This document shows positions 3,604 to 58,964 of a stretch of 59,985 bases of DNA, in pieces. A model generated the notes under the pieces. It saw nothing but the letters and a program-made list of their open reading frames with translations, had not been told where the DNA came from and ran no database searches. The DNA is from Escherichia phage vB_EcoS_OddieOddie: the sequence record OL539454.1. The stretch is one strand, 5' to 3'. Within the stretch, counting starts at the first letter, position 1; the number at the start of each line of letters is the position of its first letter. The translations under genes were made by a program, and so were the position numbers.

Positions 3604-3698
3604 TTGCAACTTCCAAATTGATTGGTTTATATTAACGAACACGGGGCTGGGACGGCTCAGCCCCAAAAACGTCACACGGGTGACAACGGAGATAAGAA

Positions 3699-4571: not shown

Positions 4572-4693
4572 GTTGACATCCCGACGTCCCTGATGTTAAG
4601 TTTCAACACATCAGGGACACGGGTTCCTAAACAGCCTTCCACGGGGAAAGGCTACCAACAGTAAACAAATCAATCCTTTTCCTGGAGACAAGT

Positions 4694-6818: not shown

Positions 6819-6956
6819 TCATGGAAATGAGCCATAGACAATATGTGTTGTGGCTCCTCCGACGTAATAGAAAACGGCGTCAAGAAGACGCCGTTTCTGT
6901 TCCTGAAGAAGGGCTCCCGCCACTTATCCCTACAACCATCGCAATGAGGAAGAAAG

Positions 6957-7847: not shown

Positions 7848-8254
7848 TGGGATTCGGAGCGGATATACGGCGTGCAAGTCAAAAGGTGCTTGTCCAGACT
7901 GGGGAGCAAGCCAAAAAGGTTGTTGTCAAGTTCACGGAGAATGTAATTCAGGATACTCCTGTTAAGACCGGACGTACAAAAGGCGGTTGGCGTTCATCCA
8001 TTGGTGCACCATATGCGACGGAAACTATCCGCCTCGATCCTACTGGGGAATTAGCTAAAGCGGAAGCTAGGGTTATCGTAAGACAGTTGCCAGATGATAA
8101 AGACTGGACTTTCTACTTTAGCAACTTAACCCCGTATGCTCCGAAACTTGAATATCTTGGTTGGTCGCAGCAAGCGCCAAATGGCATGGTGCGTATTAAC
8201 GTAGCGAAGCTACCAATGTTGATACGCCAAGCTATTGTAGAAGGAAAACTATAA
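7847..8254 (+). CDS. putative neck/tail completion protein
   Basis: 135-aa ORF, start overlaps upstream stop (ATGA-type coupling); synteny only. Confidence 0.35.
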   Translation: MGFGADIRRASQKVLVQTGEQAKKVVVKFTENVIQDTPVKTGRTKGGWRSSIGAPYATETIRLDPTGELAKAEARVIVRQLPDDKDWTFYFSNLTPYAPKLEYLGWSQQAPNGMVRINVAKLPMLIRQAIVEGKL

Positions 8255-8703
8255 TGCTGGGATACGATTTTATCAATGACGCATTTAATAAGATGCTACG
8301 CGAAGCCGTTGGACCGGATATAGGTATAGCGTGGAAGAACAAGAAGTTTACACCTAAAGCGAATCAGATGTGGTTAAAGGCAATCAATGCACCTGCATCT
8401 ACATACGCGGCAACGTTAGGTGACAACGGTCTGAATGAAATTCCAGGATTCTATCAAGTTACAGTGTACAGTCCGTTAAACACTGGAACGTCTAAACAGA
8501 ATCAAATCTTGGATTCCATTCGGAAAAAGTTTAAACTGGGCTTGCGTATCCCGTGCCCGGATGACCACACGATACGAATTGTCAGCTTAGACTTTTCGCA
8601 GGGTGGACAAACTTCGCTGAATAATTTTACCAGAGGCGGGGTTGAAGACAACTGGGACGTTAACTTTATTACAATCTATTGGTCGGCTCGTGAGCCGAGG
8701 TAA
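8254..8703 (+). CDS. putative tail terminator/completion protein
   Basis: 149-aa ORF immediately upstream of major tail protein; synteny only. Confidence 0.35.
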   Translation: MLGYDFINDAFNKMLREAVGPDIGIAWKNKKFTPKANQMWLKAINAPASTYAATLGDNGLNEIPGFYQVTVYSPLNTGTSKQNQILDSIRKKFKLGLRIPCPDDHTIRIVSLDFSQGGQTSLNNFTRGGVEDNWDVNFITIYWSAREPR

Positions 8704-8717
8704 GAGAGGATCTAAAT

Positions 8718-9641
8718 ATGGCTACAGGTTCACGTTATTCGTGTTATTACGTCAAAGAAGATGTGAGCAACACAACTCCAGCAAGCGCGAAGTTTACCCC
8801 GTTTCGTGTAACGAGTTCCGGTCTGGATATTAACATTGCGACGCTGGAGTCTGAAGAACTGCGTGATGACGCAGAAACCGCAGACTTCCGTCTTGGCGCT
8901 CGAAGCGTTGAAGGTACGGTAACAGGTGAAATGTCCTTCGGTACGTTTGACGACCTCATTGCGGCAGCACTGCGCGGTGAATGGCAGGACAACGTCCTTA
9001 AAGGTGGTATTGTTCGCCAGTCATTTACTTTTGTAGACTATAACGCAGATCTGCCATCAGGTAAATACACAATCTATCGCGGTTGTGAAGTTAACAGCAT
9101 GACTTTCTCATTGTCTGCTGAAAACATGACCACAGTAGAGTTCGGCATTGTTGGTCGCTCGATGGAAATTGCTGAATCACTTCCTGCTGGTGCTTCCATC
9201 AAAGCTCGTACAACTTCTTCACCGATGGACGGCTTCTCCGGTCGCTTGCTGGAAGGCGGTCAGGAGATTAGCGTTATTACGGAAATCGGTCTTACCGTTG
9301 AAAACGATATCTCTCCGCGCTTCGTTGTTGGCTCGAAGTTCTCCATTGAACCGTCTGCTGGTCGCCGTGCTGTAACTGGTACAGCTAACGTTTACTTCCT
9401 GGATAACAAACTGCGTAAGAAGTATCTGGACGAAGTGGAAACTTCAATCAAGTTTGATTTGATTGACCCAAGCAATCCGCAACAAAAATACACTGTGGAA
9501 ATCCCTCGCGTGAAATTCACAGAGGCTCCGCGTCCTATTGACGGTGAAGGCGATATCATGCTTAATATGGGCTACCGCGGATTGCTGGACCCAACAACCG
9601 CAAGTTCCATCAAAATTACCCGCGTTTTAGCGGCAGCATAA
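8718..9641 (+). CDS. major tail protein
   Basis: 307-aa ORF with strong SD, located just before the chaperone and tape measure genes. Confidence 0.55.
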   Translation: MATGSRYSCYYVKEDVSNTTPASAKFTPFRVTSSGLDINIATLESEELRDDAETADFRLGARSVEGTVTGEMSFGTFDDLIAAALRGEWQDNVLKGGIVRQSFTFVDYNADLPSGKYTIYRGCEVNSMTFSLSAENMTTVEFGIVGRSMEIAESLPAGASIKARTTSSPMDGFSGRLLEGGQEISVITEIGLTVENDISPRFVVGSKFSIEPSAGRRAVTGTANVYFLDNKLRKKYLDEVETSIKFDLIDPSNPQQKYTVEIPRVKFTEAPRPIDGEGDIMLNMGYRGLLDPTTASSIKITRVLAAA

Positions 9642-9650
9642 GGATAAGAA

Positions 9651-10058
9651 ATGACCGACACCAAAAAAGCCAAAGTTGCAGTAGCTAAAAGCTTCCGTGA
9701 TTTTAAAACTGTGAGCCGGGCAAATGATCCGGCAAACACTAAGCCTATGAATGTGGTTATTCCTGGTGTAGGCGACACTGGCGAAAAACTCTACATTCGT
9801 AGTCGCTACTGCACAGAGTATCGTGACGCAGAATTGAAAGCACAACGTCAACTGTTGGCACTTATGCAGGGTAAAGACGGTGAAGTAACGGATGCTATGA
9901 AGGAAGACATCCTTACCCGTTCACTGTGTAATCTTGTAGCAGGTTGGACGTTTGACGAGCCCCCAACTGTTGACAACGTGTTTGAGTTCTTAACGGAGAA
10001 CCCAACTGTCCGAGAAGACCTTAACGTATTTGCCGCTAAAGATAGTAATTTTTTCTAA
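9651..10058 (+). CDS. tail assembly chaperone (G-like)
   Basis: 135-aa acidic ORF immediately upstream of tape measure; ends at a slippery heptamer. Confidence 0.55.
   Translation: MTDTKKAKVAVAKSFRDFKTVSRANDPANTKPMNVVIPGVGDTGEKLYIRSRYCTEYRDAELKAQRQLLALMQGKDGEVTDAMKEDILTRSLCNLVAGWTFDEPPTVDNVFEFLTENPTVREDLNVFAAKDSNFF
10049..10055 (+). other. candidate -1 programmed ribosomal frameshift slippery site (T TTT TTC)
   Basis: Heptamer X XXY YYZ in the zero frame of the chaperone ORF, two codons before its stop; the -1 frame stays open to 10455. Confidence 0.5.
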
Positions 10059-10455
10059 AAGCGCGCAGACAGTTAATTGATAAGAAGATCCTCCAATGGG
10101 AACTAAATAGTAAAGTCCCCGGCGGGGGATCTTCTTTATTATCGCAACTGCAAAAGGTTGAGGAACAGTCTGGTAAGACGCCACCTAAGCTTAAAGAATA
10201 TCGGGAAAAGGAAATACCGATTTGCTTCGAATATCTATCTACTTTATTTGATGATATCTACACTGGAGGAGATTTTAGTTATACAGAATTGCACAGCTAT
10301 CAAGTGACAATGGGCTTACATCTTCAACCGTACGAATGCGAAATACTGCGGCAGCTATGGCTTGAAAAGCGCGTGTCAGAAGCTGAACAAAATGCTAAAC
10401 TCATGGAAAGTCAAATGCAAAATCAAAATAAAGGTAGAAGAAAAAGGAGAAGATA
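10049..10455 (+). CDS. frameshift extension of tail assembly chaperone (GT-like product)
   Basis: -1 frame is open for about 135 codons with no usable ATG until near its end, and stops immediately before the tape measure start at 10456. Confidence 0.45.
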
Positions 10456-13400
10456 ATGGCCGAAACCGCTTCGCTAGTAATCAGAGTTGACGCGAGAGGG
10501 ATTAGTACCGCGGACTCTATGTTGCGGAACTTAGCGCGTACAGGTGACACAGCGGAGCGGTCTGCTCAACGTGTTACCTCCAGCTATAAAACATTGTCTA
10601 ACACATCTAACGAACTTGCAACCGTCACAAGTCGTTTGGATGCTGCAATTGTAGGCATGATTAGCGTTGACACTATTAGCCGTGTTATATCGCTGTCTGA
10701 CTCCTGGACCATCCTTACCAACAAACTTGAACTGGCTCGTACGGGTAATGAAACCGTTGCGGATGCGCAGCAACGCGTGTTTGATATTGCCCAGCGGTCA
10801 CGTACAAGCTTGGAAGCGACTGCAACTCTGTACTCCCGTCTCCAGCGTGCGATGAAGAATACTGGTATGACTGGTATGGAGCTTGGACGTATCACGGAAA
10901 CAATTAACAAAGCAATGATTGTTTCCGGTGCAACATCCCATGAAGCAAGTGCTGCTCTTATTCAGTTTTCGCAAGCGATGGCATCCGGTGTTTTGCGCGG
11001 GGATGAATTCCGATCTGTTGCAGAACAGGCACCGCGCTTAACTCAAATCATGTCCGATTCGTTAGGCGTTACCATTGGACAATTGCGTGAGCTGGCGTAC
11101 AGCGGAAAGTTAACATCAGATGTGGTTATCAAATCGTTGTCTGGTGCTGCGGATACAATTGATAAAGAATTTAGCCGCACTATGCCAACGTTCAACCAGC
11201 AATGGACAGTTGCAACAAACAACCTGACTAAGTTTATGGGTGAATCCCAAAAGACTCAAGGTGCGGTTGCTGCATTGGGACAGACGTTTGTTGCATTATC
11301 CGAAAACTTAGGAACGGTTGTAACGGTTGGTTCAGCTTTAGCCACAGTGATTACCGCCCGTATCATTACGGCAATGCTTGCTAAGACTAAAGCGTCTATA
11401 GCTGCTGCAAAAGCATCTCAGATGGAAGCTGCACAAACTGCGGCAACTACGGCGGTGATGCAAAGCTCTATTGGCGTTACCGCACAGAAAGCGGCGGCGG
11501 ATCGTGCTGCTTCTCTTGCCGCGTTACAGGTCGCTCGCGGGTCATTAGCGGTTGCTAAGGGTACGGCAGCGGAAGCAGGTGCTCGTCTTGCGCTTATTAA
11601 TGCTACCCGTGCGCATTCTGCGGCAATTATGGCGGACGTACAAGCGCGGCAAGCGCTCAATGCTGCTCTTAACGCAACTGTACCAGCCGCAAGCCGGGCA
11701 GCTACAGCAATGAGCGTGCTACGCGGTGCTATGGGGTTAATTGGCGGTCCTGTTGGTGTAGCAATGCTGGCAGCGGGTGCAATTTATTCCTATAAAGCGT
11801 CGCTGGAAGCGGGTCGTGCGGAAAACAATCAGTTTGCAGATAGCGTTGATAGTGTACGCGAAAAACTGATGCAAATGACAGAAGCTCAGTTGGCAGCTAA
11901 CGCGGTCAAAGCTAGAGCAATCCTTCCTGAGCTTGAAGAGCAAATGAAGCGGGAACAGACCGCTTTAAAATCTGCAACAGAAACGCAAAAGTTCTACGAA
12001 GCACAATTAAAACGTCGAGCTGCATCCGGTCGAGATACTGCTAGTGCGGAAAAGAACTTACAGATTGCTACGGATAACGTCAAGCTAGCTGCTGAACGCG
12101 CGGAAGACGCACAACGTCGATATAACAATGTGCTTGAAATGACAAGCCCCGCTATAGAGAAAATAATCCCTCTAGCACGTCAGCTTGCTGCGGATATGAA
12201 GGCTGTCCTTAGCATTAAATCCGGTCCGTTAATTGACGAAAAAGTATTGGATCGCTTTAAAGGTCAACTCGGGGACGTTAACCGTGAGATTGATGTTAAC
12301 ACGGTTAAGGGCGCTGGTAATGCTCGCCAAGCTGCAATCCTTAGTGGACTGTACCAGACGCTGGGCAAGGATGCGGATACATACGGAAGTCTTATTCGCA
12401 AAGTAGCTATGGGGCAGGATGTTAGCTCTGAAGCAACAAGCGAATCCGCTAAAGAGCTTGTTAAATATGCTCAAGATTTAGCCCAAGCTCTTGGCAAAAA
12501 CTACGATCTTGAAGAAGCAGAGAGAAACCGGACTAAAGCTACAAAAGACGCTATTAAGGCAGATCAACAAAACGCTAAGGTTATTGACGATTTACGAAAC
12601 AAGCTTAACGAAGTAACCACAGGGGTTAAGGAAAACGCCAAAGCGAAAGCGCAAGCGGTGGCACTTAATAAGCTCAATGCGTCTGCAACGGCTGCGGAAA
12701 AAGCAGAAGTCGTTAGTCTTGCTGCTGCAATTTACGATGCAGAAGAAGCTCAAAAGAAACTGGACGAGCGTAAGAAGAATCGTAAGTTTGCTCAGGGTCT
12801 GTTAGATGAAGGTATGACAGACTACGCGCAAATCGAATACGAGATGCAAGAAAAGATTATGAAGCTTCACAGGGATCAACAAGCGGATGATCTTGAGCAT
12901 TATAAGCTCTACGAAGATGCAAAGACGCAAGTCCTGAAGAAAGCAAGTATGGAAAGAGAAAATCTGGATAAAGTTCTTATGAACCGAATGATATCCTTTT
13001 CTCAGGAATCCTTAGGCGTTATAATGGATGGACTGTCACAGGCTGTAAGCCAGCAGAACTTCTTTTATAAAGCTATGTTTGCAGCACAGAAAGCAATGCA
13101 AATCCCGTCAATCCTTGCCAACACGGAAACGGCAGCATCCGCGGCGCTTGCATGGGGTACACAGCAAGGCGGTGCCACAATGGGCGCAACTATGGCGGCT
13201 ATAGTGAAAACTATGGGTTATGCGTCAGCCGCTACTGTGGGTGGCTTAGCAATTGCTGGTATGGCTCACGACGGTATTGATAACGTTCCGCGTGAAGGTA
13301 CATGGTTGCTGGATAAGGGTGAACGTGTACTTAATGCTCCGTCTAATGACAAGTTAAATCGCTTCCTGGATAGCCAAGCTTCACAACAAGGTGGCGTGAA

Positions 13401-13572
13401 TATGTCCGGTGGTGTTAGCATTGTTCAGTATATCACGGTGCAAGGAAATGGCGATGCAGCACTCACACAAGCTATGCAAAAAGCAGCCCGTGATGGCGCT
13501 GAGCAGGGATATAATAAAGTTCTTAATGACTTTGCATCCCGAGGAACAATTCGTAGAACTGCAATGGGGTAA
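10456..13572 (+). CDS. tail tape measure protein
   Basis: 1038-aa ORF, Ala/Gln-rich helical, hydrophobic segments; follows chaperone pair. Confidence 0.8.
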   Translation: MAETASLVIRVDARGISTADSMLRNLARTGDTAERSAQRVTSSYKTLSNTSNELATVTSRLDAAIVGMISVDTISRVISLSDSWTILTNKLELARTGNETVADAQQRVFDIAQRSRTSLEATATLYSRLQRAMKNTGMTGMELGRITETINKAMIVSGATSHEASAALIQFSQAMASGVLRGDEFRSVAEQAPRLTQIMSDSLGVTIGQLRELAYSGKLTSDVVIKSLSGAADTIDKEFSRTMPTFNQQWTVATNNLTKFMGESQKTQGAVAALGQTFVALSENLGTVVTVGSALATVITARIITAMLAKTKASIAAAKASQMEAAQTAATTAVMQSSIGVTAQKAAADRAASLAALQVARGSLAVAKGTAAEAGARLALINATRAHSAAIMADVQARQALNAALNATVPAASRAATAMSVLRGAMGLIGGPVGVAMLAAGAIYSYKASLEAGRAENNQFADSVDSVREKLMQMTEAQLAANAVKARAILPELEEQMKREQTALKSATETQKFYEAQLKRRAASGRDTASAEKNLQIATDNVKLAAERAEDAQRRYNNVLEMTSPAIEKIIPLARQLAADMKAVLSIKSGPLIDEKVLDRFKGQLGDVNREIDVNTVKGAGNARQAAILSGLYQTLGKDADTYGSLIRKVAMGQDVSSEATSESAKELVKYAQDLAQALGKNYDLEEAERNRTKATKDAIKADQQNAKVIDDLRNKLNEVTTGVKENAKAKAQAVALNKLNASATAAEKAEVVSLAAAIYDAEEAQKKLDERKKNRKFAQGLLDEGMTDYAQIEYEMQEKIMKLHRDQQADDLEHYKLYEDAKTQVLKKASMERENLDKVLMNRMISFSQESLGVIMDGLSQAVSQQNFFYKAMFAAQKAMQIPSILANTETAASAALAWGTQQGGATMGATMAAIVKTMGYASAATVGGLAIAGMAHDGIDNVPREGTWLLDKGERVLNAPSNDKLNRFLDSQASQQGGVNMSGGVSIVQYITVQGNGDAALTQAMQKAARDGAEQGYNKVLNDFASRGTIRRTAMG

Positions 13573-23046: not shown

Positions 23047-23577
23047 ATGCAAAACGTAAACGCAGGAATGGGCGTAACCCAGTTCAACGGGATGAAACCG
23101 AAAAACTCCATCAACATGGGCGGTGTTGATTGGACGTTACGTCGGGACGCTACCGATTCAACTACCATGTTCCCACACCAGAAGGTTAGCTGGCTTAATG
23201 CTGGCTGTGAACCTATGGGTGATGGAAGGGTTCATTACTGTTGGATTATGGGAGTGATACCGCCTACGCCGGGCACTATCGAACGACCCGTGAATGTGAT
23301 GTATGTCGGCTTCCACCAGTTTAAAATCACGATCGCTCCAAACTCCATTAGTCAGTCTGATCTTGATCGTATGCACGTTTACGTCAGCGATGGTACAGAC
23401 TTTGCAGGTGATTTTATTAATAAGTTTCTTGGCGTGCAACCGGAGCAACCTGTAGAAGCCCGCGAACATATTAGTCCGTGGCCACCAATGATTGATCAGG
23501 AAGTGTTGCAGCCAAAGACCGCTCAAACGGTCCCTCAGAAACCGGAGCAGAAGGTAAAACCAAATGACGAAGAATGA
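23047..23577 (+). CDS. hypothetical protein
   Basis: 176-aa ORF in late arm. Confidence 0.45.
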   Translation: MQNVNAGMGVTQFNGMKPKNSINMGGVDWTLRRDATDSTTMFPHQKVSWLNAGCEPMGDGRVHYCWIMGVIPPTPGTIERPVNVMYVGFHQFKITIAPNSISQSDLDRMHVYVSDGTDFAGDFINKFLGVQPEQPVEAREHISPWPPMIDQEVLQPKTAQTVPQKPEQKVKPNDEE

Positions 23578-24765: not shown

Positions 24766-24801
24766 TCCTTAAAATACCCGCGCGAACGCGGGTATTATTT
24801 A

Positions 24802-38830: not shown

Positions 38831-38895
38831 TGGAGTACCTTAGAAAAATAAGCCGTCTTTCGACGGCTTAGGGACACTACAGAGGGAGGGTTAAC

Positions 38896-39780
38896 TTACT
38901 GCTGCCACGGCGGGACTGCTGCTTGTGCCGGATGCGGTTCAGCTTGCTGCTGTGGCTGCGCTTGCTGCTGTGGTGCTGCTGCCTGGCCCGGCTGTGCTAC
39001 CTGCTGCGCCCACGGCTGCTGAGCTGCTTCCGGTGCTACTGGCTGTTGTACCGGAGCTTGCTGAACGGGCTGCTGCGGCGCTGCGTTTTGAGCAGGATTA
39101 TCCCACGGCTGCGGTGCTGCGTTCTGCCACGGTTGAGCTGCTGCGCCCTGCTGCGGTGCTGGTTGCTGCTGCACAGGTTGCTGAACTGGCTGCTGTTGCT
39201 GTACCGGAGCTTGCTGCTGTACAGGCGCTTGCTGTTGCTGAGCAAACGGGTTAGCTGCTGGCTGCTGTGGCGCTGCGCCCGGGAAAGTCGGTTGCTGTGC
39301 TGGCGCACCTGCACCAAACGGGTTAGCTACTGCTGGAGCACCCATTGATGGAGCCTCTGCTGCTTTTTCTGCATATTTAACCGGATCGTTGATGTTAGCG
39401 TAACCGTTAGGCTCGTTGCTGTCTTCATAACCTTCCTGAGAACGAACTTTCAGACGCAGGTTCAGCGGAATGTTATGCAATTGAGCAGGAGTATCCCAGC
39501 GAATTACACCAACTGCATGAGACAGAGCGCCCAGTTGCTCGTAAGCGATACGCACAGTATCTTCGTTGTCATTGATGACGTTATAACGAGCGAAGATTTT
39601 ACGACCTTTAGCAAAACCGTCAATGATGCTAAACGTTACCTGGATCGCCATACCGCCATTTTTGGTCGGTTTAAATTCAGATGCTTCAATTACTGCTTTA
39701 TACCAACCTTTCGGCAATGCGCCGTAAGAAGGTGCTTGATAGCTGCTCGCGTCAAAGTGGAAATTAGTTGGCATAGTCAT
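38896..39780 (-). CDS. putative ssDNA-binding protein with Gln/Pro/Ala-rich disordered tail
   Basis: 294-aa ORF; globular N-terminal domain then long QQQ/PVQQ/AP low-complexity region; upstream of a Sak4-like ATPase. Confidence 0.45.
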   Translation of the reverse strand: MTMPTNFHFDASSYQAPSYGALPKGWYKAVIEASEFKPTKNGGMAIQVTFSIIDGFAKGRKIFARYNVINDNEDTVRIAYEQLGALSHAVGVIRWDTPAQLHNIPLNLRLKVRSQEGYEDSNEPNGYANINDPVKYAEKAAEAPSMGAPAVANPFGAGAPAQQPTFPGAAPQQPAANPFAQQQQAPVQQQAPVQQQQPVQQPVQQQPAPQQGAAAQPWQNAAPQPWDNPAQNAAPQQPVQQAPVQQPVAPEAAQQPWAQQVAQPGQAAAPQQQAQPQQQAEPHPAQAAVPPWQQ

Positions 39781-58183: not shown

Positions 58184-58453
58184 ATGACTACATTCAGTCA
58201 CCTGATCCCACCTGCTTATATGAGCAAGGTAGTTGACCACGGGACGCATGTTGTAATTGGTGGCGAAATCTTTATCACAGATAACGAGGAAATCGCCATT
58301 GCAATTATTGACAGCACTCAGCCTGACTTTATGGTTATCCTGCAACACGAACCAGATCAGTTCACTTTTTACTCCAGTTACGGGGTCGACAAAGGTGGAC
58401 AAGATCTTGTTAAGTGGTACATTAACGAATGGTTTGAGCACTGTTCTATCTAG
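58184..58453 (+). CDS. hypothetical protein
   Basis: 89-aa ORF coupled to upstream gene. Confidence 0.4.
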   Translation: MTTFSHLIPPAYMSKVVDHGTHVVIGGEIFITDNEEIAIAIIDSTQPDFMVILQHEPDQFTFYSSYGVDKGGQDLVKWYINEWFEHCSI

Positions 58454-58526
58454 ATCAATTCTCCTTGCGCCGTATCAAGTTTCTCTGTTACCCTTCATGG
58501 GTTCATGTCAAGCGGAGGAACTCGAT

Positions 58527-58964
58527 ATGGCGCTTCAACCTCGTGGTATTCGTAACAACAATCCAGGAAATATTCGCTGGGGTGACAATTGGCAGGGTTT
58601 AGTACCTGTTGATAAACGAACCGATAAATCTTTTGCACAGTTTACGCAACCGATCTACGGTATTCGTGCTCTAGCTAAAGTCCTGACTAACTACACCAAA
58701 CGCGAAGGCTTACCCAATGTGGGTAAGAAAAATATTGATACTGTACGTGAAATTATCGCTCGCTGGGCACCGCCTAACGAAAACGATACGGAAGCGTATA
58801 TTCGCTCTGTTGCCAAAGCAATTGGTGTTGAACCTAACGATCCAATCAATGTCTTCGACAAGACGATAATGTCAGGTTTGGTAAAAGCAATCATTCGTCA
58901 TGAAAATGGCATGATGCCTTATACGGACGACGTAATTAACCGCGCTATTGCAATGGTACTTTAA
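58527..58964 (+). CDS. candidate endolysin (by position)
   Basis: ATG at 58527 with SD GGAGGA; conserved-looking RGIRNNNPGNIRWG motif; directly upstream of holin and spanin candidates; enzymatic class not identified. Confidence 0.35.
   Translation: MALQPRGIRNNNPGNIRWGDNWQGLVPVDKRTDKSFAQFTQPIYGIRALAKVLTNYTKREGLPNVGKKNIDTVREIIARWAPPNENDTEAYIRSVAKAIGVEPNDPINVFDKTIMSGLVKAIIRHENGMMPYTDDVINRAIAMVL

What the first reader, a model, noticed from the sequence alone, without database searches (positions are those of the whole stretch)
10041..10455. Canonical -1 frameshift site at the end of the tail assembly chaperone gene
The slippery heptamer T TTT TTC lies two codons before the chaperone stop, and the -1 frame is open for about 135 codons up to the tape measure start. 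This matches the conserved G/GT chaperone arrangement of long-tailed phages.
Basis: partly seen in the sequence, partly recalled or inferred. Interest (0 to 1): 0.45.

Follow-up and report, generated by a model that had tools for sequence, protein, structure and literature searches.

The report
Tail chaperone G/GT -1 frameshift site
This is the ordinary, already annotated programmed -1 ribosomal frameshift that lets a Seurat-like E. coli phage make a short and a long tail assembly chaperone from one gene; the only new detail is a conserved RNA hairpin just downstream.

Summary
The window is a Seuratvirus genome, 97-99% identical to phages CSP1, Seurat and CAjan.

- **Anatomy.** The chaperone gene G (9651-10058) ends AAT TTT TTC TAA. 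The heptamer T TTT TTC (10049-10055) is followed directly by the stop. The -1 frame opens exactly at the heptamer and runs 135 codons. Its TAA (10454-10456) overlaps the tape measure ATG (10456).
- **Homology.** G and the -1 frame product match the two halves of one 256-position PHROG profile (phrog_569).
- **Coding signal.** 42 of 59 variable columns among close relatives fall on third positions of the -1 frame.
- **Conservation.** All 111 family loci examined have T in the -1 frame. A slippery motif sits at the same FF position: mostly T TTT TTC, otherwise A AAA AAG, A AAT TTT or near-canonical variants.
- **Prior annotation.** GenBank KM236243 (phage Seurat) already annotates this exact slippage.
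- **Extra finding.** A stable stem-loop at 10078-10141 lies in a stretch with suppressed synonymous variation (p = 6e-8). In a distant clade a hairpin over the same codons starts 6 nt after the heptamer and has covariation support. Here it starts 14-22 nt downstream, so its role is unproven.

Interest is low.

The parts
8718..9641 (+). Major tail (tube) protein gene, immediately upstream of G
   Evidence: Pfam PF18906 Phage_tube_2 E 2e-43; phrog_290
9651..10058 (+). G: tail assembly (tape measure) chaperone, 135 aa, zero frame; stop TAA 10056-10058
   Evidence: ORF list. Matches phrog_569 positions 11-126 (E 3e-26) and phrog_313 'Tail assembly chaperone' (E 3e-11). Annotated as tape measure chaperone in Seurat, WildeMaa and CSP1C.
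10043..10048 (+). Two -1 frame stop codons (TAG TAA) that close the -1 frame right up to the heptamer
   Evidence: Read directly from the sequence. They restrict any productive -1 shift to the heptamer itself.
10049..10055 (+). Slippery heptamer T TTT TTC (X XXY YYZ in the G frame), encoding the invariant Phe-Phe
   Evidence: TTTTTTC is conserved in frame in all 14 annotated relatives, down to 24-29% identity, and is the commonest motif among the 111 loci (61 of 85 loci, 14 of 26). The FF columns are invariant in alignment A1. H_HH.U_UU.Y is among the most efficient E. coli -1 motifs (PMC4066793).
10055..10456 (+). T extension: -1 frame, 133 codons after the shift (CTA AAA GCG ...) plus TAA 10454-10456. 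With G it gives a 268-aa GT fusion (...KDSNFF-LKARRQ...).
   Evidence: Matches phrog_569 positions 130-256 (E 7e-47) and Pfam PF23812 Phage_TAC_18 (E 2e-9). 42 of 59 variable columns fall at -1 frame third positions. There is no start codon before TTG 10289.
10078..10141 (+). Stable irregular stem-loop (UGAUAAGAAGAUCCUCC ... GGGGGAUCUUCU-UUAUUA) inside the T ORF, 22 nt 3' of the heptamer. A predicted outer 5-bp helix, 10070-74 with 10146-50, would shorten the spacer to 14 nt. Candidate cis-element; function not established.
   Evidence: - Folding of 10049-10160 gives -34.3 kcal/mol, z -4.0 against dinucleotide shuffles.
- It ranks 14th of 11,983 70-nt windows on the + strand.
- z is -2.8 to -3.2 against synonymous resampling.
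- Only 3 of 43 third positions vary in 10020-10149, against 109 of 225 elsewhere in G/T, p 6e-8.
- Equivalent hairpins with different sequences occur in yong3, Nonagvirus, K9PH25C2 and Vid5.
- Nonagvirus/K9PH25C2 show 2 compensatory pairs.
- No Rfam family matches.
10444..10458 (+). Shine-Dalgarno AAGGAG (10444-10449) and ATG (10456-10458) of the tape measure gene; the ATG overlaps the T stop (TAATG)
   Evidence: Read directly from the sequence; ORF list
10456..13572 (+). Tape measure protein gene (1038 aa)
   Evidence: Pfam PF20155 TMP_3 E 9e-60; phrog_339 E 1e-180

Best explanation
This is the G/GT tail assembly chaperone recoding site of a Seuratvirus siphophage.

- **Default product.** Most ribosomes translating G decode ...AAU UUU UUC and terminate at UAA, releasing the 135-aa chaperone G.
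- **Shifted product.** A minority slip one nucleotide back on U UUU UUC. tRNA-Phe re-pairs with UUU in both the P and A sites. These ribosomes then read CUA AAA GCG ... in the -1 frame for 133 more codons and terminate at the TAA that overlaps the tape measure ATG. The result is a 268-aa GT fusion.
- **Inferred function.** By analogy with lambda, the G domains coat the tape measure protein and the T domain recruits the tube protein. The fixed low GT:G ratio would be set by the shift frequency.
- **Shown versus inferred.** The gene anatomy, the homology of both halves, purifying selection on the -1 frame, and family-wide conservation of frame and slip motif are shown here. That the shift is ribosomal, its efficiency, and the assembly role are inferred from established knowledge.
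- **Hairpin.** The downstream hairpin at 10078-10141 is a conserved RNA element that may modulate the event. This is not established.
For: **Anatomy.**
- The heptamer is in register, and the -1 frame opens exactly at it and ends on the tape measure start.
- The gene order is tube, G, T, tape measure.

**Homology and selection.**
- G and T match the N- and C-terminal halves of the single profile phrog_569. T also passes Pfam Phage_TAC_18.
- 42 of 59 substitutions among Seuratvirus relatives lie at -1 frame third positions.
- No start codon exists for the first 78 T codons.

**Conservation.**
- T is in the -1 frame in 111 of 111 loci from GenBank phages, IMG/VR and metagenomes.
- The slip motif sits at the invariant FF of the fusion alignment.
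- It is replaced in other clades by A AAA AAG, A AAT TTT, T TTT TTA AAG or near-canonical C AAT TTT A / G GTT TTT A. All allow A-site re-pairing.
- The motif is retained although the G stop lies 0-38 codons downstream.

**Literature and prior annotation.**
- U_UU.U_UU.C belongs to the efficient class in E. coli (PMC4066793).
- The same event is annotated in KM236243.
- G-T frameshifting is reviewed in PMC5009743.
Against: - No protein-level or reporter evidence exists for this phage or, as far as I could find, for this chaperone family.
- The predicted hairpin starts 14-22 nt after the heptamer. That is outside the usual 6-9 nt, so a classical stimulator is not evident here.
- The run of six T could in principle support some RNA polymerase slippage, which would give the same protein.
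- Most GenBank records of close relatives annotate only a short 3' fragment of T as a separate ORF.
Confidence: 0.9

Rival explanations
1. Transcriptional slippage. RNA polymerase adds one extra U on the T6 run (10049-10054), and standard translation of that mRNA subpopulation gives the same ...NFFLK... fusion.
For: The run of six T (seven in Nonagvirus) is homopolymeric. The product would be indistinguishable from the ribosomal one.
Against: Related loci keep the same arrangement with only 4-5 T (A AAT TTT, C AAT TTT A, G GTT TTT A) or with A AAA AAG. In all of them the motif is kept in the codon register that tRNA re-pairing needs. From general knowledge, efficient polymerase slippage in bacteria needs about 8-9 or more identical bases.
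Confidence: 0.04
2. No recoding. T is translated on its own from an internal start (TTG 10289 or a later ATG), as annotated in WildeMaa, CSP1C and Skure. The upstream open -1 frame would then be incidental.
For: Several GenBank records annotate 48-70-aa ORFs at the 3' end of this region. The ORF listing finds TTG 10289 as the first start.
Against: - The 78 codons upstream of 10289 are conserved as protein across the family and align to phrog_569 from position 130.
- Substitutions there follow the -1 frame codon pattern.
- The frame opens exactly at the heptamer.
- 0 of 20,000 shuffles keep it open.
Confidence: 0.03
3. Mechanistic variant of the main explanation. The shift is a single P-site slip of peptidyl-tRNA-Phe from UUC to UUU while the ribosome waits with the UAA stop in an empty A site, rather than a tandem P/A slip. 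The adjacent stop would then be the stimulator in this clade instead of a close hairpin.
For: - In Seuratvirus, Nonagvirus and K9PH25C2 the zero-frame stop follows the heptamer directly. These are the clades whose hairpin is far away, at 14-28 nt.
- A nearby stop affects frameshifting in other systems, such as PEMV (PMC5009743).
Against: The full heptamer, not just the U UUC tetramer, is conserved. In many relatives the stop lies 3-38 codons downstream, so stop adjacency is not required in the family.
Confidence: 0.25

Closest known systems
Phage lambda G/GT tail assembly chaperone frameshift (Levin, Hendrix & Casjens 1993; Xu, Hendrix & Duda 2004, 2013, 2014; reviewed in PMC5009743)
   Same: Two overlapping ORFs lie between the major tail gene and the tape measure gene. 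A -1 shift occurs on a heptamer near the end of G. The T ORF has no start of its own and ends at the tape measure gene.
   Different: The heptamer is T TTT TTC (Phe-Phe) rather than G GGA AAG. The stop is directly adjacent to the heptamer. The proteins belong to a different sequence family (phrog_569 / Pfam Phage_TAC_18). No expression data exist here.
Escherichia phage Seurat CPT_Seurat13/14 (GenBank KM236243, 'tape measure chaperone', ribosomal slippage at 10236)
   Same: Same genus, with 97% nucleotide identity over this region and an identical slip site and hairpin sequence. The joined CDS gives the same kind of fusion.
   Different: Nothing of substance. It is an annotation, not an experiment.
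E. coli dnaX and IS3-family -1 frameshift signals (heptamer plus 3' stem-loop or pseudoknot 5-9 nt downstream)
   Same: There is a slippery heptamer with a stable downstream stem-loop. In the marine clade of this chaperone family the stem starts 6 nt after the heptamer. U_UU.U_UU.C is used by some IS elements (PMC4066793).
   Different: In the window the stem starts 22 nt downstream (14 nt with a weak outer helix). No upstream Shine-Dalgarno-like element was seen on reading the sequence. The expected efficiency is low rather than about 50%.
Phage T7 gene 10A/10B frameshift (G GUU UUC with a distal 3' element)
   Same: It uses a U UUC-type A-site slip on tRNA-Phe in an E. coli phage, and it sets a precedent for a stimulatory element far 3' of the site (PMC5009743).
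   Different: It involves a capsid gene, not a tail chaperone. The distal element lies more than 200 nt away in the terminator.

Membership tests
G/GT tail assembly chaperone programmed -1 frameshift of long-tailed phages | A pair of ORFs located between the major tail (tube) gene and the tape measure gene | tested here: met
   Tube 8718-9641, G 9651-10058, T to 10456, tape measure 10456-13572
G/GT tail assembly chaperone programmed -1 frameshift of long-tailed phages | The second ORF overlaps the 3' end of the first in the -1 frame and lacks its own initiation site | tested here: met
   The -1 frame is open 10049-10453 and the first possible start is TTG 10289. T is in the -1 frame in 111 of 111 related loci.
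G/GT tail assembly chaperone programmed -1 frameshift of long-tailed phages | A slippery X XXY YYZ heptamer in the zero frame inside the overlap, conserved among relatives | tested here: met
   T TTT TTC at 10049-10055 is the only position possible in the 10-nt overlap. It is conserved, or replaced by other slippery motifs, at the same alignment column.
G/GT tail assembly chaperone programmed -1 frameshift of long-tailed phages | Both halves are homologous to tail assembly chaperone proteins | tested here: met
   phrog_569 (both halves), phrog_313 'Tail assembly chaperone' (G) and Pfam PF23812 Phage_TAC_18 (T).
G/GT tail assembly chaperone programmed -1 frameshift of long-tailed phages | Two proteins, G and GT, made in a fixed ratio; both needed for tail assembly and absent from virions | not testable with these tools
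   Needs western blot or mass spectrometry and genetics. No such data were found in papers on Seuratvirus or Vid5.
Structure-stimulated -1 PRF (dnaX / IS3 type) | A stable stem-loop or pseudoknot whose 5' end lies 5-9 nt 3' of the heptamer | tested here: not met
   In the window the stem begins 22 nt downstream, or 14 nt with the outer helix. Relatives of the marine clade meet the criterion at 6 nt with covariation support. Family-wide, 37% of loci have a structure of -15 kcal/mol or stronger at 4-9 nt, against 13% at control positions.
Transcriptional slippage sites | A long homopolymeric run (from general knowledge, about 8-9 or more A or T) | tested here: not met
   The run is T6 here, and only 4-5 T in several related clades that keep the same arrangement.

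The most novel reading that the evidence does not exclude
The stem-loop in the first ~100 nt of the T ORF may be a conserved cis-acting RNA element of this chaperone family that tunes the G:GT ratio.

- It sits at classical stimulator distance (6 nt) in clades with weaker heptamers (A AAT TTT, C AAT TTT A).
- It is weak or absent next to A AAA AAG.
- In Queuovirinae-type phages such as this one it has moved to 14-28 nt. There the zero-frame stop directly abuts the heptamer and may take over the pausing role.

Alternatively, the hairpin could act on mRNA fate after the G stop, through processing, stability or polarity, rather than on frameshifting.
Probability: 0.3. Interest if true: 0.4.

Novelty: already known. 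Interest (0 to 1): 0.15.

Why it matters
The G/GT frameshift is a textbook feature of long-tailed phages, and this very site is already annotated in phage Seurat. Confirming it here mainly has annotation value. Of the four Seuratvirus records whose feature tables I opened, three (WildeMaa, CSP1C, Skure) call a truncated T ORF. In the hit lists, several other records label G or T 'tail length tape measure protein' or 'hypothetical protein'.

The modest added value is comparative. This chaperone family gives a clean natural series of different slip motifs at one homologous position. It also carries a covariation-supported downstream hairpin whose distance from the site varies between clades. That series could be used to test how heptamer strength, hairpin spacing and an adjacent stop codon trade off in bacterial -1 frameshifting.

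Tried and rejected
1. **Structure prediction.** A profile search of PDB sequences gave only chance-level hits. NCBIfam gave nothing meaningful. The chaperone fold was therefore not tested.
2. **Known RNA families.** Rfam gave nothing at gathering score for the whole window. Only sub-threshold miRNA-precursor-like matches hit the hairpin, which reflects a long stem and nothing more.
3. **Family-wide hairpin from the single best 70-nt window per locus.** This was too noisy. Positions scatter and neither the heptamer nor the G stop is a tight anchor.
4. **Synonymous-resampling z-scores across 40 non-redundant loci.**
   - The region after the heptamer averages -1.48, against about -0.3 to -0.5 further into T.
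   - G regions also average -0.8 to -1.7.
   - The family-wide signal is therefore not unique to this spot. The claim is limited to particular clades.
5. **Synonymous-site suppression in Nonagvirus.** It extends over about 270 nt and is not specific to the hairpin (p 0.05).
6. **-1 frame extension past the stop, ranked against all genes.** This was uninformative because downstream genes often lie in the -1 frame.
7. **Literature.** Papers on Seuratvirus comparative genomics and on Vid5 do not mention the frameshift. The Seurat announcement only lists a tape measure chaperone.
8. **Terminator reading of the inner GC hairpin plus T-rich tail (10115-10140).** The scan matched it, but Nonagvirus has no U tract after its hairpin. 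A conserved intrinsic terminator is therefore unlikely.

Full report
**What the window is.** A megablast of 9400-10700 against GenBank phages finds 34 records. Most are 94-99% identical over the full query: Cronobacter phage CSP1, and Escherichia phages CSP1C, phiG7, Seurat, CAjan and the BASEL phages WildeMaa and others. The taxonomy of the hits is Queuovirinae; Seuratvirus. The window is therefore essentially a complete genome of a known siphophage genus.

**Checking the observation.**
- The ORF 9651..10058 (135 aa) ends ...GAT AGT AAT TTT TTC TAA.
- T TTT TTC occupies 10049-10055 in the X XXY YYZ register of that frame. The stop TAA (10056-10058) follows directly.
- The -1 frame has stops at 10043-45 (TAG) and 10046-48 (TAA). 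It is then open from 10049 to 10453 and closes with TAA 10454-56, whose last A is the A of the tape measure ATG (10456).
- The two frames overlap by only 10 nt. The single in-frame heptamer position that fits is occupied by a canonical heptamer.
- In-frame XXXYYYZ heptamers occur at 65 per 17,398 codons in this genome's ORFs, and TTTTTTC in frame only twice. None of 20,000 shuffles of 10055-10453 keeps the frame open.
- The +1 frame closes at 10080.
- The first ATG/GTG/TTG in the -1 frame is TTG at 10289.

**What the genes are.**
- Upstream lie a tail terminator (8254-8703) and a tail tube protein (8718-9641, Pfam Phage_tube_2, E 2e-43).
- Downstream lie the tape measure protein (10456-13572, Pfam TMP_3, E 9e-60) and a distal tail protein.
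- G matches phrog_569 at profile positions 11-126 (E 3e-26) and phrog_313 'Tail assembly chaperone'.
- The -1 frame product matches the same phrog_569 at positions 130-256 (E 7e-47) and passes Pfam PF23812 Phage_TAC_18.
- One 256-position profile is thus covered by the two frames in order. This is what a G-T fusion family looks like.
- PHROGs labels phrog_569 'tail length tape measure protein', which is a misnomer.

**Is the -1 frame really coding?** Among 11 Seuratvirus sequences, 59 columns of 10055-10453 vary, and 42 of them are third positions of the -1 frame. Only 12 of 133 codons change amino acid.

**Comparative test of the shift site.**
- I read the junction in 14 annotated phages spanning 99% to 24% protein identity: Seurat, WildeMaa, CSP1C, Skure, Hafnia yong3, 9g, HdK1, Klebsiella K9PH25C2 and K21lambda1, Pantoea Vid5, Providencia PSTCR4 and Kokobel2, Pseudomonas PaMx11 and Xanthomonas DoCa5.
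- All have T TTT TTC in the G frame inside the G/-1 overlap. The G stop lies 0, 1, 6, 13, 16 or 18 codons after it.
- In the fusion alignment the Phe-Phe encoded by the heptamer is invariant, and the sequence aligns on both sides of it.
- The set was extended with 70 IMG/VR loci and 28 metagenome loci. HMMs of the G and T halves place T in the -1 frame relative to G in 85 of 85 and 26 of 26 loci where both halves were found.
- The motif at the homologous position is mostly TTTTTTC. In other clades it is A AAA AAG, A AAT TTT or T TTT TTA AAG. In 15 loci it is the near-canonical C AAT TTT A or G GTT TTT A, in which at least the A-site tRNA can re-pair.
- Replacement of one slippery motif by another at a fixed position, in register, is strong evidence for ribosomal slippage. 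It argues against polymerase slippage, which would not need the codon register and would need longer runs.

**Prior knowledge.**
- GenBank KM236243 (phage Seurat) carries a two-piece CDS 'tape measure chaperone' 9835..10640 and notes 'ribosomal slippage (10236)' on the G CDS. Position 10236 maps to window position 10052 inside the heptamer and gives the same ...NFFLK... product.
- The Seurat announcement lists a tape measure chaperone among the morphogenesis genes (PMC4342423).
- Other records I opened (WildeMaa, CSP1C, Skure) annotate only a 48-70-aa 3' piece of T.
- In E. coli, H_HH.U_UU.Y heptamers are among the most efficient -1 motifs. U_UU.U_UU.C shifts above 0.1% without a stimulator and is used by IS elements (PMC4066793).
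- The biology of G/GT is reviewed in PMC5009743: G coats the tape measure protein, T binds the tube protein, and the ratio is about 30:1 in lambda.
- The finding is therefore correct but already known.

**Mechanism.**
- Shown: the anatomy, the homology, the selection on the -1 frame and the conservation.
- Inferred: tRNA-Phe in the P site (UUU) and A site (UUC) re-pairs with UUU UUU one base back. The ribosome then reads CUA AAA GCG ... to the TAA at 10454-56, giving a 268-aa GT.
- Because the stop abuts the heptamer, a single P-site slip on a ribosome waiting at UAA would give the same protein. I cannot separate the two variants.
- The tape measure gene has its own AAGGAG (10444-10449) and ATG. 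It does not depend on ribosomes arriving from T.

**A downstream RNA element: evidence in and near the window.**
- Folding 10049-10160 gives -34.3 kcal/mol (z -4.0; 0 of 200 shuffles as stable). The structure is dominated by a 17-bp-plus stem-loop at 10078-10141.
- It ranks 14th of 11,983 70-nt windows on the + strand of the genome.
- It is more stable than sequences resampled with synonymous codons (z -2.8 and -3.2).
- Among Seuratvirus genomes only 3 of 43 third-codon positions vary in 10020-10149, against 109 of 225 in the rest of G and T (Fisher p 6e-8). Both variable columns inside the hairpin span (10111 and 10116) lie in its loop region.
- Hafnia yong3, Nonagvirus, K9PH25C2 and Vid5 each have a long hairpin over the same codons, with different arm sequences and slightly different registers.
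- In the Nonagvirus/K9PH25C2 alignment 2 of 18 pairs show compensatory double changes, one of them made of two synonymous changes.

**A downstream RNA element: evidence from distant relatives.**
- In a distant, probably marine, clade with A AAT TTT-type motifs, an approximately 78-nt hairpin over the homologous codons (L-I-D ... K-V-S-R) starts 6 nt after the heptamer.
- In that clade 91.8% of cells are paired, against 27-50% when partners are slid. Six pairs have changes on both sides. 0 of 500 shuffles reach the observed covariation score.
- Family-wide, 37% of non-redundant loci have a structure of -15 kcal/mol or stronger starting 4-9 nt after the motif, against 13% at control positions.
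- Stability relative to synonymous controls is strongest beside the weaker A AAT TTT-type motifs (z about -1.9 to -4.0) and near zero beside A AAA AAG.

**Limits of the hairpin reading.**
- In the window the stem starts 22 nt after the heptamer, or 14 nt if a 5-bp outer helix (10070-74 with 10146-50) forms. In Skure-type genomes a G-to-A change at 10150 removes the terminal pair of that outer helix.
- Most 3' stimulators start 6-9 nt from the site, and a minority at 12-15 nt (PMC5009743). A classical stimulatory role is therefore not supported for this phage.
- The family-wide synonymous-control signal is not unique to this region. The Nonagvirus synonymous suppression is broad.
- The element is real and conserved, but its function is open. 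It could be a distal modulator of the shift, or an mRNA processing or stability element in the ribosome-poor stretch after the G stop.
- The inner GC hairpin plus T-rich tail resembles a terminator, but Nonagvirus lacks the U tract.

**Verdict.** This is a correct identification of an ordinary and already annotated feature, so interest is low. The comparative series of slip motifs and the conserved hairpin with clade-dependent spacing are the only parts that might repay an experiment.

Noticed in passing
window 1-59985: The window is essentially a whole Seuratvirus (Queuovirinae) genome, 97-99% identical to Cronobacter phage CSP1 and E. coli phages CSP1C, Seurat and CAjan over the tested 1.3 kb. 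This genus is known for 7-deazaguanine DNA modification genes.
   Followed up: partly
window 9651-10456; GenBank NC_027378, NC_028776, PP627281, MZ501112, PQ202980, MK672798: Annotation problems in public records. PHROG 569 and several RefSeq or pharokka-style records call G and T 'tail length tape measure protein'. WildeMaa, CSP1C and Skure annotate only a 48-70-aa 3' fragment of T as a separate ORF. Of the four Seuratvirus records I opened, only Seurat (KM236243) carries the joined CDS.
   Followed up: partly
window 10340-10429: A second stretch of suppressed synonymous variation among Seuratvirus genomes (5 of 30 third positions variable) lies at the 3' end of T, just upstream of the tape measure Shine-Dalgarno and ATG. 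It may be a translation-initiation or structural constraint.
   Followed up: no
window 10029-10037 with 10060-10069: When upstream sequence is included in the fold, UUUGCCGCU upstream of the heptamer is predicted to pair with AGCG-CGCAG downstream of it. This would place the slippery site in a loop. The helix cannot coexist with a ribosome on the site, and its significance is unknown.
   Followed up: no
window 58467-58533: This is the most stable 70-nt fold on the + strand of the genome (-38.7 kcal/mol). It is a long near-perfect hairpin inside ORF 58257..58964.
   Followed up: no
window 38890-39310: A GC-rich region full of GCTGCTG/CAGCAG-like repeats gives many of the most stable folds and two short tandem repeats (39103-39151, 39197-39234). 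It lies in the minus-strand ORF 38896..39780.
   Followed up: no
window 3643-3664, 4586-4618, 6873-6895, 24773-24796: Strong hairpins sit in intergenic gaps of the late operon, after 3603, 4571 and 6818. A terminator-like hairpin followed by TATTTATT lies between the plus-strand block (its last ORF of 100 aa or more ends at 23577) and the minus-strand genes that follow. These are possible processing, stability or termination signals.
   Followed up: no
L097:1066-1075, L098:744-753: Two metagenomic relatives carry overlapping heptamers T TTT TTA and T TTA AAG at the slip position, instead of T TTT TTC.
   Followed up: no
window 1-59985: The window has no tRNA or tmRNA genes (ARAGORN) and no Rfam family at gathering score.
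   Followed up: yes
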